This document shows positions 7,401 through 51,300 of a stretch of 64,000 nucleotides of DNA, piece by piece. The notes beneath the pieces were generated by a model. It did not search any database, was not told where the DNA came from, and saw only the letters and a program-made list of their open reading frames with translations. The stretch is from Callorhinchus milii (Eukaryota): contig NW_024704795.1 in NCBI RefSeq assembly GCF_018977255.1, positions 248,001 through 312,000 on the forward strand, read 5' to 3'. The translations under genes and the position numbers were made by a program. Each line of letters begins with the position of its first letter. Position 1 is the stretch's first letter.

Positions 7401-8454
7401 TAAGCCTAAAACAGAGAATTTGGGACCCTGAGGGCCACACGTGCACCTTCCAGCAGTTTCTGGTTAATGATCAGGAGTGGAATCCAAAGCCCAGACAGAG
7501 ATCAGTCGAGATCCCATCTTGTGATCACCTGCACTGGGAGCTCACTCAGCATTCACTGAGCTGAGACACACCACATAACAGTAACTTACCCCCTGAGCCA
7601 CCCAAGGCCTGGCAAACACTGAGCAAAATTCTACAGCAGCGGCCTGGGGGCAAGTGGTACATTGTAGGGTGGGGAGAGGTAAAGGGGGGGATAAGGAAAG
7701 GCTGGTAGCAAAGCATGGGAGCGAAGGAGTGGGAGAGAGAATGTGGGGGAGGAAGGAGAAAATATATAAAAACACAAGCTTTTGGGCCACAGCTGACAAG
7801 CCCTCACTCACACGCCTTCTGAATAAAGAGAAAGTGTGAGATGTGCTGCAGCTCCAGCACTGACTGAGGAACATGCACTCCCTGTACTCACACCAACAGT
7901 CAGCCTCGGCCAGGAACACACACAGGGATCAGGGAATGCGCGGAGTCTCGAAGGGTCTGACGATGCAGGAACACTGTATAGACTCCGCTCCTGACTGCTC
8001 TCTCCTCAGCACTGCACAGATGTCTGTTGGTTCAGTAATAAGCAAAGGACCTCCCCACTGCTGATTTCTCACAGCTTGTGTGGCTGCAGGCAAAGTGCTG
8101 CCAATCGCTGATTCACCCGCAGGCTACTACAGTACAGTGGTGAGTAATGATCCTGTCACTGCAAATGTACTGCACAGTGTACCTCTGAGTGCAAGTGAGT
8201 CAGCAAGACACAAGCTGCAGAGCAAAGCAATTAGTTGTAATTGCCTCTCCACCACTGCAGGCAAACCTGGGATCCTGATCAGCTCTGAGTTGCTATTCAG
8301 TGGTTTGGAACCAACCCTGGAGCTCTCACACCAAATGATGAACAAACAGCAAAATGCAGATCCAAAAAAACACAGCCCTGAACACAAACAGCACATACAA
8401 CAGGGAAACAGGCCAATTGGCCCAACTTGAAGGCAACATTATTTGTATTCCACT

Positions 8455-8830
8455 GTGTCAGCCTCAATCAGTTGGTAGCACTCTTGCCTGAGGTTGTAGG
8501 CTCAAACCCCACATTGGGACTTAGAACTCACATAATATCTGGGGAAGACAGGTTTGCAGGGTTATGGGGAGAAAACTGGTGATTGGGGTTAGTGAAAGTG
8601 ACGCTCTGTCAAAGAGCCAGCACAGACTCGATGGGCCGAATGGCCTCCTTCTGTGCTGTAACATTCTATGAATCTATGAAATCTATAATCCAGGCTGACA
8701 CTCCAGTGCAAAGCTGCCTTGTGCTGCATTATCAGAGGTGCCTTCCTTTGGATGAGATGTTAAACCAAACTGTTGTTAGTTGGACGTTGAAAATCCTTCG
8801 GAACAATGCAAAAGGAGTTGGGAATTGTTC
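8455..8830 (+). mobile_element. Old tRNA-headed SINE interrupted by a CR1 3' tail (about 8540-8680)
   Basis: Head TCAGTTGGTAGCACTCTTGCCTGAGGTTGTAGGCTCAAACCC. Inserted CR1 tail GAGCCAGCACAGACTCGATGGGCCGAATGGCCTCCTTCTGTGCTGTAA. SINE body resumes at ATCCAGGCTGACACTCCAGTGC. Confidence 0.6.
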
Positions 8831-9114
8831 TTTTCTGATATCGCGCCTTTCACATCAGGATGTCCCAATGTGCAGGACAGTACAAGGTTCACCTACAAAA
8901 TACACAGTTACTTCACTAAAGAGTAAATCCTGTGAAACGCTTTGAAACGTCCTCCCAATGAAAGGTGTTGTATCAAACACAAGGAATTAATATCATGAGC
9001 TTCCACCCTTTCCATAATATATGATCAGCAATGATCTTATTCATCTCAAGATACAAGAAACTAATTAAATTCTACTCGATCAGAGTGAGAAAAACACAAG
9101 CAAAAAAGTACATG

Positions 9115-10552
9115 GTGAGTGGCTGGTGATGATGATAGTGATGATGATGGTGATGAAGATGGTTATGGTGATGATGATGGTTATGGTGATGATGTTGATA
9201 TTGCTGATTGTCATGATGACAATGGTTATAGTGATGATGATGGTTATGGTGATGATGGTGAGGGACTGGTGGTGATGATGGTAAGGGGCTGGTGATGATG
9301 GTNNNNNNNNNNNNNNNNNNNNNNNNNNNNNNNNNNNNNNNNNNNNNNNNNNNNNNNNNNNNNNNNNNNNNNNNNNNNNNNNNNNNNNNNNNNNNNNNNN
9401 NNNNNNNNNNNNNNNNNNNNNNNNNNNNNNTGGTTATGCTGATGATGATGCTGATTGTGATGATGACAATGGTTCTAGTGATGATAATGGTTATGGTGAT
9501 GATGGTGAGGGACTGGTGGTGATGATGGTAGGGGCTGGTGATGATGGTGATGATGGTGAGCGGCTGGTGATGATGGTGATGATGATGGTGAGGGGCTGGT
9601 GATGATGGTGAGGAGCTGGTGATGATGGTGATGATGATGGTGAGGGGCGGGTGATGATGGTGAGGAGCTGGTGATGATGATGGTGAGGGGCTGGTGATGA
9701 TGGTGATGATGGTGAGCGGCTGGTGATGATGGTAATGATGGTGAGGGGCTGGTGATGATTGTGAAGGGCTGGTGATGATGGTGAGGGGCTGGTGATGATG
9801 GTGAAGGGCTGGTGAGGATGGTGAGGGGTTGGTGATGATGGTGATGGGCTGGTGATGATGGTGAGGGGCTGGTGATGATGGTGAAGGGCTGGTGATGATG
9901 GTGATGGGCTGGTGATGATGGTGAAGGGCTAGTGATGATGGTGAAGGGCTGGTGATGATGGTGAGGGGCTGGTGAGGATGGTGAGGGGTTGGTGATGATG
10001 GTGAAGGGCTGGTGATGATGGTGAGGGGCTGGTGATGATGGTGAAGGGCTGGTGATGATGGTGATGGGCTGGTGATGATGGTGAAGGGCTAGTGATGATG
10101 GTGAAGGGCTGGTGATGATGGTGAGGGGCTGGTGATGATGGTGAAGGGCTGGTGATGATGGTGAGGGGCTGGTGATGATGGTGAAGGGCTGGTGATGATG
10201 GTGAAGGGCTGGTGATGATGGTGAGGGGCTGGTGATGATGGTGAGGGGCTGGTGATGATGGTGAAGGGCTGGTGATGATGGTGAGGGGCTGGTGATGATG
10301 GTGAGGGGCTGGTGATGATGGTGAGGGGCTGGTGATGATGGTGAGGGGCTGGTGATGATGGTGAAGGGCTGGTGATGATGGTGAAGGGCTGATGATGATG
10401 GTGAGGGGCTGGTGATGATGGTGAAGGGCTGGTGATGATGGTGAAGGGCTGATGATGATGGTGAGGGGCTGGTGATGATGGTGAGGGGCTGGTGATGATG
10501 GTGAAGGGCTGGTGATGATGGTGAGGGGCTGGTGATGATGGTGAAGGGCTGC
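9115..10552. repeat. GATGAT/GGT low-complexity tract grading into a 20-bp minisatellite (GTGARGGGCTGGTGATGATG)n; contains an assembly gap at 9303-9430
   Basis: Tandem periodicity is directly visible. The His-rich ORFs here are a by-product. Confidence 0.95.
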
Positions 10553-31068: not shown

Positions 31069-47083
<16,015 letters not shown>

Positions 47084-47099
47084 TACGTACTGCGCCACT

Positions 47100-47642
47100 C
47101 GGGCCCCGTTGCTCTGGAGCGAAAGATGGGGCGGGGGAGGGGGGGATAAGCGACGCTATTGCGCATGCGCAGTAACGGTCAGCTCGCGCGTGGAATAAGT
47201 CGTCACGTGAACTACGTTTCCCAAAGTGCCGCGCGCGGCACTTTGGGAAACGTAGTTCACGTGGCGACTTATTCCACGCGCGCGGCACTTCGGGAAACGT
47301 AGTTCGCGTGGCGACTTATTCCGCGCGGCACGCGCTGCTTGGCCCAGGGCTGGGACACGTGACTGGGGAGGGTGATGCGTCACGTGGCCTGGGCCCGGAG
47401 CCCCCCACCTCGGAGGCCAGGGGACGCCCTTCCCGCATCCAACCCTCAGCAACCAACCGCCCCCTCCCCGCTTTGGGTCAAAGGTCCGCCGAGCCACGAC
47501 CAATCAGAGAGCCTTCCCTGAACCCCCAGCCTCCCGCGCCCATTGGTTGAAACTGCGTCACTCAGCAGCCGCTGGCTTCCCATTGGTCAATAGGTTCGTT
47601 GAGGGCGGGAGGTGCGGCGCCGCGTGACCCGGAGATTGACAG
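47100..47642. promoter_or_regulatory. Bidirectional CpG-island promoter of MLH3 (-) and ERG28 (+), including probable non-coding exon 1 of ERG28 (donor CAG|GTGAGA after 47642)
   Basis: NRF1 site TGCGCATGCGCA at 47160; three ZNF143-like ACTACGTTTCCC(A/G)AAGTGC; several CACGTG E-boxes; three CCAAT/ATTGG boxes near 47500, 47542 and 47582; GC box GGGCGGGA. Confidence 0.8.
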
Positions 47643-47664
47643 GTGAGAAGCTGCTGCAAAAGCA

Positions 47665-48140
47665 CCCGTGCATGGGGGTGTGGGGCTGCAATGTACTCGT
47701 GCATGAAATGGGGGGGGGGGGGGTCTGCGATGCCCTCGTGCATGGAGTGTGCATGTGTGGGGGAGAGGGCTCCGATGCATCCTTGCATGGAGTTGGGGGG
47801 GGGGGCTGCAGTGCACCCGTGCATGGAATGGGGTGGGGGGGGGTGCTGCACTACACTCGTGCATGGAATGGGGTGGGGGGGGCTGCACTGCACTCGTGCA
47901 TGGAGTGGGAGGGAGGCAGGTGCAATATACATGTGCATGAAGTGTGCGGGTGCTGCAATGCGCTCGTACATGAAATGCGGGGGGTCTGCAATGCCCCTGA
48001 GCATGTGTGTGTGGTGAAGGGGTGGGGGAGCTGCACTGTATTTGTGCATAGAGTGAGGGTGGAGAAGGGACTCCAATGCCCCCGTGCATGGAGTGGGGGG
48101 GAGGGATCAATGCACTCTGGCATGGAGTGGGGGGTGCGTG
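47665..48140. repeat. Degenerate G-rich tandem repeat (GTGCATGGARTGGGGG...) in ERG28 intron 1
   Basis: GTGCATG plus a G-run recurs roughly every 35-40 bp. Confidence 0.75.
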
Positions 48141-48348
48141 GGCCTGCAATGCATCTGTGGATGAGGTAGGGGGGGTGCTGGGGTGGGGGGAAGGGTGTAC
48201 GGTACAGGTGGGGGGTGGTGTTGAAGAGGGAGCAGGTCCTGCCCTTACAAGTCCCAGTTCTGCCGTGTTGCTACTCAGGGAGGTTGGAATACGAAGGTTG
48301 GAATGTGCCCAGTGGTATTTGTGCAAGATCTTGTCTCTTTCCCCCAGG

Positions 48349-51300
48349 ATGAGTCGTTTTCTGAATGTGCTTCGCAGTTGGCTTGTCATGGTGGCTGTCA
48401 TCGGCATTGGAAACACAATACAGAGCTTTAGAGATCACAGCTTCTTGTCAGAGAAAATCTACACTGGCCAACCAGCACTGGGTACGCACCAGATTGGCAG
48501 CACTGCCCAACACAAAGTGACTAGCGCAGAGACAGCAGAGTGACTGCAATGACAGCAGCAAATTACATGTATAAAGTGAGGGAGGACTGGGGTGATGGGT
48601 GCAGATTTGGTGTGGGTGAGGGTGCGGGTAGCAGAGATTTGGATGAGTTAGACTTGTGAATAGTACACCTACAGAGACCAGCATTGGAGTGCATTGCATT
48701 GTCACTAAACTCGCTCACACCTCTCCACTCACTTCAGTCCAGTTTCTATGCTGCCCACAGCACTGAGCCAGCGCTCTGGAAAGTCACAAATGACCTCTCT
48801 CTCTGCGATCTGGATTTGATCTGCCTCCTTTGTCCTCCTGGACTTCTCTGTTGCTTTGGACACTGTTGATCATGCCATTTTCTTCGACCGCTTCTCCTCC
48901 CTCATCCACCTCAGTGAGATTACACTCCAGGTTCTAATTCTACTGCAACCAACACCATTATGGCTCATCAAATGGCTTCTCCTCATGATCCCACCAGGTC
49001 ACCTGTGGCATATCTTTGGCCCTCTCTTTGCCTCAGTACACCAACGTCCTGCAGCTAAATGTTGACAAGATAGTAGTCATCCTCCCATCAGCATCTTCTC
49101 ATCTGTGGCTCTGACTTCCCTCCTGCCTTCTACACATCCCTCATCCACTCCACTGACAGTGGCCATGCTTTCAGCCACTATGCTCACTCTCTCACTCAGC
49201 CTGTGAGACTCCTCCTTTCCCATCTTCATATCAGATCTTTGGATCACATCTGAAGACCTTCCTCTTTGACCTACGGTCACCTCCTCCCTCTCCCCAGCTT
49301 GACGTGAACCTCCGCAACTATTAAGTGCTCCAAGACACAGCCCCCATGTGAAGAGCGCTATGTAAATGCCAGACAGTGCTTTCAATGGAGTTTTATCTGA
49401 TTAAACTCCACAAAAACCCAACAGACACTCTGGGGTTGTCAAGATTTCTCAATCTGTTCCTAACATTCTTTGTAATTAGGAAAACAAGGTGCATCCATTC
49501 AGGAAGAGTGTGTACATTTGTGGAGTCCTGTAGCTCAGTGGTTAGAACACTCGCTTTCCAAGCGAGAGACCCGAGTTCAATTCCAGGCAGAGGGCGAAAC
49601 CTTGGGCAAGTTTCCTTACTCCACACACAGCCTAATAATAATCCCTCCAAAAAACCCAAAACAATAATAAATTGGTCATTTTCAATCTACGACTGTTTGT
49701 GGGACATTGCTGTGCGCAATTGATGGCGCGTTCGCCCACAAATATACAGTCAATTCACTTTACAGTGTGTTCTGTGAAGCGCTTTGGGACATCCTCCCGA
49801 CGTGAAAAGCACTATATCAAATGCAAGGATTATTATTATTATTACATTCTATATGATAGAATTACAGAATTATACAGCACAGAAGGAGACCATTTGGCCC
49901 ATCGTGTCTGTGCCGGCTCTTTGAAATCAATCCCATTCCCCCGCGCTCTCCCCACAGCCCTGCAAACTTGTCCTCCCCAAATAATTGTCTACTTCTCTTT
50001 TAAAAGTTGTTATTGAATCGCTTCCACCAGCCTTTCAGGCACTGCATTGCACCGTTTACTACTATTCCCAGCTTTGTATCATTTGCAAACTTGGAAATTG
50101 TACTCCCTATCCCCAAGTCCAGTCATTTGCCCACAAATATACAGTCAATTCACTTTACAGTATATTCTGTGAAGCACTTTGAGACGTCGAGAAGAAAAGC
50201 GCTATTTGAAATGCAAAGATTATTATTATTGTTTACATAGATCAAAAACAGCAGTGGTCACAATACTGACCCCTGGGAAACACCACTGCACACTTCCCTC
50301 CAGTCAAAAAAACAATGGTTCACCACCACGTTCTGCTTTCTCCCCGCCAGTTCTGTATTCGCTGCCACTGTCCCCTTAATTCCTGAGCTTCAATTTTGCT
50401 TACATCCATACATCAACTGCACTACCTTCATCCATTACTTCATCAAAACACGATCAGACGGAAATTTCCATGGGTACATTTAGGACTTCTGTCAAGTTTG
50501 AATACTCTTAAGCACTGTGATGGCCTAACACATCCAGTTGTCTAATTCAAAAAACATGTAGAGGAAGTGTTACTCTGTCTCTAACGAGTACTGTCGCTGG
50601 AGTGCTTCCCCCCCAAAAAAGGGGAGGTCCTCCCGACATGAACCGCTCTATATAAATGTAATTTGTTGTTGTTGGATGGACAGGGTAGAAGGAGCCTGTG
50701 TAATGCTGTGTGTTTCTTCCCTGTACAGTGAATGGGCTGCAGGCCCGGACGTTTGGCACCTGGGTTCTTCTCGCCTCCATCATTCGCTGCAGCTGTGCGA
50801 TGGATATTCACAATACCACGTAAGTTTTACAGCTGTTACCCAGGCTCAGATCTGTCCATCCATCAGCCTCATTTAGTTGCATCTGGATCAGAAGGTTGTG
50901 GGTTCAAATCCCACATCAGCACAGCCTCACAGTCTCGGCTGCCTATAGTTGTAGGTGAACAAGGCACCTAATGTACACATAGGGAAGTTTCACAAACAGC
51001 TGGGAGGTGAATGACTTAGTATCCCGGATGCTTTTTTAACAGCTTTATCTACCTGTCCTGCCACCTTCAAACATTTACTTATACGAACCCCCCAGGTCTC
51101 TCTGTTCCTTCACCCCCTTTAAGATTGTACCATCAGCGTATAATAATAATAATAATAATCCTTGCATTTGATATAGCGCTTTTCACGTCGGGAGGACGTC
51201 CCAAAGCGCTTCACAGAACACACTGTAAAGTGAATTGACTGTATATTTGTGGGCGAATGCGGCAGCCAATTGCGCACAGCAATGTCCCACAAATAGTCAT

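What the first reader, a model, noticed from the sequence alone, without database searches (positions are those of the whole stretch)
47185..47327. 98-bp spacer-less palindrome of ZNF143/E-box modules at the MLH3-ERG28 bidirectional promoter, plus a third direct copy
Seen: 47185-47233 and 47234-47282 are 49-bp inverted arms with one mismatch and no spacer (centre TGCCGCG|CGCGGCA). A third, slightly diverged copy follows in direct orientation (about 47279-47327). Each module carries ACTACGTTTCCC(A/G)AAGTGC, and the two palindrome arms also carry a CACGTG. Known: the first motif resembles the ZNF143/Staf site enriched in bidirectional promoters. Long perfect palindromes are rare and extrude cruciforms under negative supercoiling, which divergent transcription produces. 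Inference: duplication and inversion of one promoter module may have created symmetric, two-way firing. It could also place a four-way-junction structure about 100 bp upstream of the start codon of a gene whose product (MutLgamma) binds Holliday junctions.
Basis: partly seen in the sequence, partly recalled or inferred. Interest (0 to 1): 0.7.

Follow-up and report, generated by a model that had tools for sequence, protein, structure and literature searches.

The report
Fold-back palindrome in MLH3 promoter
A 98-base mirror-image repeat and a third copy of a promoter motif sit between the DNA-repair gene MLH3 and the gene ERG28 in the elephant shark, most likely left by two DNA-copying slips and probably not needed for the two genes to fire in opposite directions.

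Summary
The palindrome (49-bp arms, one mismatch, no spacer) and the third copy are there, are unique in the genome, and lie in the CpG island between head-to-head MLH3 and ERG28 of Callorhinchus milii. A contig from one public run crosses the centre and stops exactly where a 31-mer graph folds back, so an artefact is unlikely; the outer left arm is not read-confirmed. Each module carries a ZNF143/THAP11 SBS2-type motif, a motif strongly enriched in this genome (375 matches, 5 in the control). All three junctions sit on (CG)n runs, which fits slippage plus a fold-back template switch, a known process. One ZNF143 site already fires both ways in human reporters. Opposed motif pairs in this genome mostly face outward (69 loci), whereas these face inward and overlap by 4 bp. 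ERG28 has its own CCAAT cluster about 300 bp away. The all-GC centre disfavours cruciform extrusion. One older gene model puts the palindrome in an MLH3 intron, so an RNA hairpin stays possible. The scan noted no look-alike of this stretch, but did note other fold-back scars in this genome.

The parts
44062..47083 (-). MLH3 large first coding exon, ATG at 47083-47081
   Evidence: P0024 (named MLH3 of this species) matches 1008 of 1008 residues here; donor at 44061; shark MLH3 N-termini of similar length
46000..47600 (.). CpG island (approximate limits)
   Evidence: GC 0.69-0.80 and CpG observed/expected 0.88-1.11 in the 500-bp bins 46000-47499
47114..47153 (-). G-rich run with a GC box (47128) on the + strand; on the - strand it reads as a pyrimidine tract ending in CAG, a candidate 3' splice site 30 nt before the MLH3 ATG
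   Evidence: Pyrimidine fraction 0.85 against 0.45-0.80 for the 11 mapped MLH3 acceptors; 1 of 33 minus-strand YAG sites in 46000-47700 reaches 0.8; used by gene model P0002; either reading is inference
47160..47171 (.). NRF1-type palindromic site
   Evidence: Exact match to a recalled consensus; binding not tested
47185..47233 (+). Palindrome arm A (inverted copy of the module)
   Evidence: only its inner 15 bases are seen in a public contig
47234..47282 (-). Palindrome arm B
   Evidence: fully covered by the X2 contig
47279..47331 (-). Third module copy C, tandem to B, ending in a partial module start (CGCGCGGCAC at 47232, 47279, 47322)
   Evidence: B|C junction in X1 and X2 contigs
47211..47235 (+). 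SBS2-type ZNF143/THAP11 motif in A (25 bp), overlapping the B motif at 47232-47235
   Evidence: Matrix score 25.4; 25-bp definition from PMC3627581
47232..47256 (-). SBS2-type motif in B, pointing towards MLH3
   Evidence: Matrix score 25.4
47279..47303 (-). SBS2-type motif in C, pointing towards MLH3
   Evidence: Matrix score 25.5
47204..47263 (.). Two CACGTG E-boxes (47204, 47258), one per arm; two more lie outside the repeat at 47356 and 47381
   Evidence: binding not tested
47114..47383 (-). Predicted 270-nt MLH3 intron 1 of gene model P0002, enclosing the whole repeat (unconfirmed)
   Evidence: Junction reproduces 37 N-terminal residues of P0002; donor weak, 6 of 9 consensus positions; no RNA joint seen
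47500..47586 (.). Three CCAAT boxes (47500, 47542, 47582), likely the ERG28 core promoter
   Evidence: function inferred
47592..47642 (+). ERG28 non-coding exon 1 (true 5' end unknown)
   Evidence: GT..AG joint skipping 705 bases to 48348 in X5 and X9, two studies; contigs begin 47592 and 47619
48348..48481 (+). ERG28 first coding exon
   Evidence: Pfam Erg28; spliced contigs

Best explanation
The repeat is three copies of one 47-bp promoter module, most likely produced by two replication errors and likely tolerated rather than selected. Shown: the layout is inverted copy A, then B, then C; every junction lies on a (CG)3-4 run; each copy holds an SBS2-type ZNF143/THAP11 motif. Inferred: the ancestor had one module pointing at MLH3, next to NRF1 and GC-box sites, as part of the MLH3 proximal promoter. 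Slippage between the 10-bp direct repeats that flank the module made the tandem pair. A nascent end at the self-complementary (CG)4 run then folded back, copied about 47 bases and returned at the matching (CG)3 run, inserting A. The order is uncertain because arms can be re-homogenised. Predicted consequences: at most two ZNF143 molecules bound at once (A or B, plus C), a modest change in MLH3 initiation, little effect on ERG28, and a hairpin on single-stranded DNA during replication more often than a cruciform in duplex DNA.
For: Junction sequences and repeat positions. Unique locus, so not a transposon end. X2 contig ends at 47219, the computed fold-back end of a 31-mer graph. Template switching is documented to create such repeats in apes (PMC7954356 passages) and in yeast promoters, with arms of 10-48 bp and 21 events between divergent genes (PMC13100816 Results part 1). 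Local multiplication recurs in this genome: an eight-unit 31-bp SBS2 minisatellite, three module copies at L099 and a 36-bp-arm fold-back near the motif at L038. Inward, overlapping geometry is the uncommon one. One SBS is enough for bidirectional activity. GC-only centre.
Against: No orthologous promoter could be fetched, so the single-module ancestor, the age and the neutrality are untested. Persistence of a 98-bp spacer-less palindrome in a housekeeping CpG island is unusual: it is the only spacer-less one with arms of 20 bp or more in 319 kb of this contig, and 0 of 90 other SBS2 loci have the motif inside a palindrome. In yeast one of two engineered arm expansions raised expression (PMC13100816 abstract), so an effect is possible. 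The MLH3 start site is unmapped; if the P0002 intron is real the module is intronic, not proximal-promoter.
Confidence: 0.65

Rival explanations
1. Same origin, but the extra ZNF143 and E-box sites are kept by selection because they tune the dose or tissue pattern of MLH3 or ERG28.
For: All three motifs still score within the range of genomic sites; E-boxes are present in A and B but not C; human data report position- and orientation-dependent ZNF143 effects (PMC13655173 passages); a yeast promoter expansion raised GRE2 expression.
Against: A and B motifs overlap by 4 bp; the motif has G at a position that is A in 89 of 90 sampled sites; no conservation or expression data; the yeast ERT1 expansion changed little.
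Confidence: 0.15
2. The repeat lies in a 270-nt first intron (or 5' leader) of MLH3, so it is transcribed into a 47-bp RNA hairpin that alters splicing or is cut into small RNAs, like template-switch-born microRNA hairpins.
For: Gene model P0002 splices 47384 to 47113; the acceptor is more pyrimidine-rich than all 11 mapped MLH3 acceptors; RNA fold z = -10.4; stem length fits the 30-55 base criterion of 10.1101/2023.04.19.537475 (passages); a low-depth X5 contig of unknown strand covers 47302-47621.
Against: The donor is weak (6 of 9, equal to the weakest of 11 true donors); P0002 also skips 46813-46337 of the coding exon, which the newer P0024 does not, so its introns are unreliable; the tract doubles as a GC box; the loop is 4 nt, not 10 or more; no joint was seen and no RNA contig covered 47068-47301; Rfam matches are all below gathering score.
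Confidence: 0.08
3. One reading: the inversion built a symmetric two-way promoter, and supercoiling from divergent transcription extrudes a cruciform that acts as a switch, possibly read by MutLgamma.
For: Arms are long enough at equilibrium: rough threshold sigma -0.026 to -0.053 with recalled parameters; competitive cruciforms averaged 71.4 bp in mouse promoters (PMC3834812 passages); a human MutLgamma ensemble preferentially nicked a cruciform plasmid (10.1101/2020.02.12.946293 passages).
Against: 12 of 12 central bases are G/C, 14 of the central 20 against 1-3 in PATRRs; a sole SBS is already bidirectional and ZNF143 is classed with near-symmetric motifs (10.1101/2023.06.27.546584 passages); inward geometry is uncommon; the repeat is far off-centre between the genes; yeast Mlh1-Mlh3 did not nick specifically at a plasmid cruciform (PMC5409509 passages).
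Confidence: 0.07
4. Arm A is an assembly or library fold-back artefact.
For: No listed contig spans the repeat; 47136-47218, which holds the left junction and the arm-specific mismatch, is uncovered in 4 of 4 runs; X2 passes the centre by only 15 bases, under the tool's 31-base bridging rule. The four runs are one study.
Against: X2 carries arm-A letters, not flank letters, left of the centre and ends at the computed fold-back point; X2 differs from the window at 47412, as X4 does, so it is likely another haplotype; the arms differ at one base and the sequence returns to unique flank; no joint skipping the repeat was listed.
Confidence: 0.05

Closest known systems
Template-switch inverted-repeat expansions in yeast promoters (PMC13100816; abstract and Results part 1 read)
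   Same: Near-perfect inverted repeat of up to 48-bp arms over transcription-factor sites, within a few hundred bases of a start codon, some between divergent genes.
   Different: Here a vertebrate CpG island, no spacer, a whole module inserted rather than an arm corrected, plus a tandem copy; no population or outgroup alignment available.
Short-range template switch events, four-point model (PMC7954356; passages read)
   Same: Reverse-complement copy of adjacent sequence with return to the original template, giving a perfect inverted repeat.
   Different: Event type cannot be assigned without an ancestor; the insert is flanked by (CG)n microhomology at both switches.
ZNF143/THAP11 SBS2 promoters (PMC3627581 passages; PMC3082894 passages and section 17; PMC11754675 passages)
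   Same: RRACTAC-N-TCCC core plus 18-bp SBS in a head-to-head CpG-island gene pair, multiple sites per promoter.
   Different: Sites are exact recent copies, face inward and overlap; G replaces the usual A after ACTAC; binding untested in this species.
Template-switch-born microRNA hairpins (10.1101/2023.04.19.537475; passages read)
   Same: One-step origin of a 30-55 bp stem inside or beside a transcription unit.
   Different: 4-nt loop, 47-bp near-perfect stem, transcription and processing not shown.
PATRRs, cruciform-forming human palindromes (PMC1851657 passages; PMC7999016 section 4 and passages)
   Same: Near-perfect spacer-less palindrome able in principle to form hairpin and cruciform.
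   Different: 98 bp against 190-600 bp, and a GC-only centre against an AT-rich one.

Membership tests
ZNF143/THAP11 SBS2 site | ACTAYRNNNCCCR core followed by the 18-bp SBS | tested here: met
   All three copies match; scores 25.4-25.5 against leave-one-out 17.7-34.9 for 30 genomic sites (above 6 of 30) and 7.4 for the next site in the window; the matrix sites were chosen by the pattern, so fixed columns are circular
ZNF143/THAP11 SBS2 site | Motif is enriched and promoter-associated in this genome | tested here: met
   375 matches against 5 for the reversed pattern; 70 of 90 sampled loci CpG-island-like
ZNF143/THAP11 SBS2 site | Protein binding in vitro or in vivo | not testable with these tools
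   Needs EMSA or ChIP
Bidirectional (head-to-head) promoter | Two genes on opposite strands with starts under 1 kb apart | tested here: met
   MLH3 ATG 47083 (-), ERG28 exon 1 donor 47642 (+); exact starts unmapped
Bidirectional (head-to-head) promoter | One shared element drives both genes | tested here: inconclusive
   The repeat is 102 bp from the MLH3 ATG but 310 bp or more from ERG28 RNA contigs, which have their own CCAAT cluster
Template-switch (fold-back) inverted duplication | Insert is the reverse complement of adjacent sequence, with microhomology at both switch points | tested here: met
   A equals reverse-complement B at 46 of 47 bases; (CG)3-4 at both ends
Template-switch (fold-back) inverted duplication | Absent in an outgroup or ancestral allele | not testable with these tools
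   No related eukaryote genome held; no look-alike in the scan; the DNA behind the 88%-identical relative P0001 could not be fetched
Cruciform-extruding palindrome (PATRR type) | Arms long enough to be favoured under negative supercoiling | tested here: met
   98 bp, above the 54-bp dominance point in PMC3834812; rough estimate with recalled parameters
Cruciform-extruding palindrome (PATRR type) | AT-rich centre that melts to nucleate extrusion | tested here: not met
   12 of 12 and 14 of 20 central bases G/C against 1-3 of 20 in PATRRs
Template-switch-born microRNA | Stem of 30-55 bases | tested here: met
   47-bp stem
Template-switch-born microRNA | Unstructured apical loop of 10 nt or more and about 35-bp stem | tested here: not met
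   4-nt loop; preference stated
Template-switch-born microRNA | Transcribed and processed to about 22-nt products | tested here: inconclusive
   No RNA contig over the arms; intron only in one doubtful model; no small-RNA data

The most novel reading that the evidence does not exclude
The palindrome is a fixed, selected structural switch at the start of a meiotic crossover gene: as duplex its two ZNF143 sites overlap and exclude each other, and when it refolds (as a DNA cruciform or as a 47-bp hairpin in an MLH3 first intron) it changes MLH3 output, a regulatory element born in one copying error.
Probability: 0.07. Interest if true: 0.75.

Novelty: new member of a known kind. Interest (0 to 1): 0.3.

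Why it matters
As read here it is a clean vertebrate example of how copying errors multiply and flip a transcription-factor module inside a housekeeping CpG island, with every junction explained by (CG)n runs. It is a handy natural substrate for two tests: whether a GC-centred 98-bp palindrome ever extrudes in chromatin, and whether inward, overlapping ZNF143 sites do anything that one site does not. It would matter more if it proved conserved across chimaeras or transcribed. The genome-wide bias to outward-facing SBS2 pairs seen on the way may interest promoter specialists as much as the locus itself.

Tried and rejected
Transposon or MITE end: rejected, the stretch is single-copy in G000 and the 14-mer outside the locus occurs at control level, 2 other matches against 4 control matches. 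Known RNA family: seven Rfam matches, all under gathering score, five of them hairpin-shaped microRNA models. CpG-decay signature: the differences between C and A/B fall in CpG, but 20 of 47 positions of C are in CpG and one difference may be a 4-base gap, so this is not significant. Dating from arm identity: rejected, one difference in 49 and arms can be homogenised. MLH3 start site from RNA: contigs cannot show starts, 47068-47301 had no cover in the four runs laid, X15 laid nothing; the run search listed no holder on record as RNA; none of this is evidence on expression. The 8 loose C letters where the X4 contig stops at 47281 fit a polymerase stall at the hairpin base but rest on one contig and are not counted as evidence. 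Papers: no listing showed this locus in searches for Callorhinchus milii + palindrome + promoter (4 papers), MLH3 + ERG28 + head-to-head (ERG28 count 0 in all 10 listed of 49) or MLH3 exon 1 terms (15 of 1,519 listed); only listings were seen and the library lacks most subscription papers. Earlier findings by words returned nothing.

Full report
Observation. The sequence holds 49-bp arms at 47185-47233 and 47234-47282, no spacer, one mismatch (47203 T against 47264 G), with perfect inner 30-bp arms. Nothing else in the window exceeds 10-bp spacer-less arms; 500 Markov resamples of 46000-47700 reached 15 at most. A third copy C follows B. It differs by two substitutions and either a third or a 4-base gap. 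The 301-base stretch matched only itself in the 992-Mb genome G000, and a 14-base core matched two other places against four control matches; the tool warns that such searches give lower bounds.

Context. The minus-strand frame is MLH3: its C-terminal exon matches yeast Mlh3 structures, its relatives are named Mlh3, and the 99-100% identical records are labelled Callorhinchus milii. P0024 maps exactly from ATG 47083 over 12 coding exons. The plus-strand gene is ERG28. Spliced contigs from two studies join a non-coding exon ending at 47642 to 48348 and begin at 47592 and 47619 (contigs do not show true starts). So the repeat is 102 bp from the MLH3 ATG and at least 310 bp from ERG28 RNA. An NRF1-type site (47160) and a GC box (47128) lie on the MLH3 side; two further E-boxes and three CCAAT boxes (47500-47586) lie on the ERG28 side (motif names recalled).

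Is it real? Four genome-sized runs of one study were laid, all as contigs (4 of 24 listed runs). None spans the repeat and all leave 47136-47218 uncovered. The X2 contig (depth 4.7) runs from 47686 through C and B to 47219. A leftward walk on a 31-mer graph of the window meets its own mirror image at exactly that base, and the 15 letters left of the centre are arm-A letters, not flank (that these contigs use k = 31 is recalled). This is under the tool's 31-base rule for bridging, so it supports the centre, not the whole arm. X1 begins at 47266 and so carries the B|C junction; X3 begins at 47309 and is uninformative; X4 stops at 47281. No joint skipping the repeat was listed. X2 and X4 share a difference from the window at 47412, so X2 is likely another haplotype. 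Artefact is put at about 5%.

The motif. PMC3627581 (passages) defines a 25-bp SBS2 bound in a mutually exclusive way by ZNF143 and THAP11; PMC3082894 (passages) gives the ACTAYRNNNCCCR consensus; PMC11754675 (passages) gives a 29-base footprint. The extended pattern has 375 matches in G000 against 5 for the control. I fetched 90 of the first 100 listed (ten dropped: four beside others, six at the end of the list; a few of the 90 overlap); 70 of 90 are CpG-island-like. On a matrix from the first 30, the three copies score 25.4-25.5, above 6 of 30 leave-one-out scores and far above the next window site, 7.4. They carry G where 89 of 90 have A, so they are acceptable, not optimal, sites. Binding is untested.

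Does the inversion make two-way firing? Three results say it is not needed. A sole SBS gave bidirectional activity in HeLa reporters (PMC3082894 section 17), and a human model classes ZNF143 among near-symmetric motifs (10.1101/2023.06.27.546584 passages), although PMC13655173 (passages) reports some strand bias; its supplementary figure on orientation was not seen. Second, geometry: outward-facing core pairs number 9 at gaps 0-30 and 60 at gaps 31-60 (50 of the 60 were listed, on many contigs and not visibly related). Inward-facing pairs number 2 at gaps 8-38 (this locus and one other) and 40 at gaps 39-68, of which 37 look by eye like one repeated 81-82-bp family, two are independent and one is A with C. 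A and B face inward, 20 bp apart, so their 25-bp sites overlap at 47232-47235 and are predicted to exclude each other. Third, the repeat is off-centre and ERG28 has its own elements.

Origin (inferred). CGCGCGGCAC occurs at 47232, 47279 and 47322, so the module is bounded by direct repeats that allow slippage; the centre is a (CG)4 run and the left junction a (CG)3 run. A equals the reverse complement of B at 46 of 47 bases. Slippage plus one fold-back with return at matching microhomology rebuilds the layout. This is the process modelled in PMC7954356 (passages) and surveyed in yeast promoters in PMC13100816 (abstract and Results part 1 of 2). In this genome it is uncommon but not alone: 319 kb of the contig hold six inverted repeats with arms of 20 bp or more and spacer up to 10, two with arms over 45 bp, and this is the only spacer-less one. 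Among the 90 SBS2 loci none has the motif inside a palindrome, one has a 36-bp-arm fold-back nearby (L038) and one has three local module copies (L099); an eight-unit SBS2 minisatellite lies on C10. No outgroup could be aligned, so ancestor, order and age are open.

Cruciform. At equilibrium 98 bp is long enough: PMC3834812 (passages and methods) found cruciforms dominant from about 54 bp, and a rough estimate with recalled constants gives thresholds of sigma -0.026 to -0.053. But at physiological salt extrusion starts by opening 8-10 central pairs, and an AT-rich centre is called a prerequisite in vivo (PMC1851657 passages). Here the central 12 bases are all G/C. A lagging-strand hairpin (about -63 kcal/mol) fits the 100-200-base single-stranded zone described in PMC7999016 (section 4) and is the likelier structure. 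On MutLgamma the papers are split: no specific nicking at a plasmid cruciform for the yeast enzyme (PMC5409509 passages), preferential nicking by the full human ensemble (10.1101/2020.02.12.946293 passages). Nothing here ties that to this promoter.

An unexpected rival. The older predicted protein P0002 begins at 47438 and splices 47384 to 47113, which would put the whole repeat in a 270-nt intron. The acceptor is strong (pyrimidine fraction 0.85; 11 true acceptors 0.45-0.80; 1 of 33 local minus-strand YAG sites reaches 0.8), the donor weak (6 of 9). The same model also skips part of the coding exon that P0024 retains, the tract doubles as a GC box, and no RNA joint was seen. If real, the pre-mRNA would carry a 47-bp hairpin of the length class in 10.1101/2023.04.19.537475 (passages), but with a 4-nt loop. 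I give the intron roughly one chance in three and a functional hairpin much less.

Verdict. A real, locus-specific fold-back palindrome plus tandem copy of an SBS2 module, best read as a tolerated product of template switching in the MLH3 promoter region (0.65). It is a new member of a known kind. Searches listed no paper on this locus; no supplements were read. Earlier scan notes describe other fold-back scars in this genome; I did not check them and they are not counted as support. Interest 0.3.

Noticed in passing
G000 genome-wide: Opposed SBS2 core pairs are mostly outward-facing, 60 of 69 at gaps of 31-60 bases, while independent inward-facing pairs within 68 bases are about three besides this locus; this looks like a spacing and orientation grammar for ZNF143 sites.
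   Followed up: partly
L141:3970-4051 and L142:4056-4137; 37 places on small contigs: A repeated 81-82-bp inward-facing SBS2 pair inside what looks like a multi-kilobase duplicated unit; L141 also holds a seven-transmembrane-receptor-like frame (8350-9299, - strand; likeness recalled, not searched).
   Followed up: partly
L143 (G000:C10, about 9286200-9286450); L044-L046: Eight tandem 31-bp units each built on an SBS2 motif, some units with a changed core, a possible ZNF143-site VNTR in a promoter.
   Followed up: no
L038:1620-1692: Fold-back-type palindrome with 36-bp arms centred on a (TA)n run, about 150 bp from an SBS2 motif; its AT centre makes it a better cruciform candidate than the finding itself.
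   Followed up: no
L126:4125-4225: Inverted repeat with 47-bp arms and a 7-base spacer on the same contig; the 151-base stretch is also present at 100% identity on contig C175.
   Followed up: partly
L099:680-880: Three local direct copies of an SBS2 module separated by C-rich runs.
   Followed up: no
window 47660-48175: Diverged G-rich minisatellite of about 37-40-bp units (12 copies) filling most of ERG28 intron 1.
   Followed up: no
window 48197-48347: The X7 contig runs unspliced into the end of ERG28 intron 1 at the depth of the exon, a possible alternative first exon, acceptor or retained piece.
   Followed up: no
window 47409-47438: An upstream ATG at 47438 (- strand) would be in frame with MLH3 if a donor at 47408 were joined to the 47113 acceptor, adding 20 residues; worked out by counting, no RNA support.
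   Followed up: no
window 20045-55000: Gene order DHHC palmitoyltransferase, eIF2B subunit, MLH3, ERG28; in human ERG28 is recalled to pair head-to-head with TTLL5, not MLH3, so this gene pair may not be conserved.
   Followed up: no
window 46797-46804, 47412, 47436: Variants in public contigs: a 6-base deletion in the MLH3 coding exon in X4, G>C at 47412 (X2, X4), C>T at 47436 (X1, X5).
   Followed up: no
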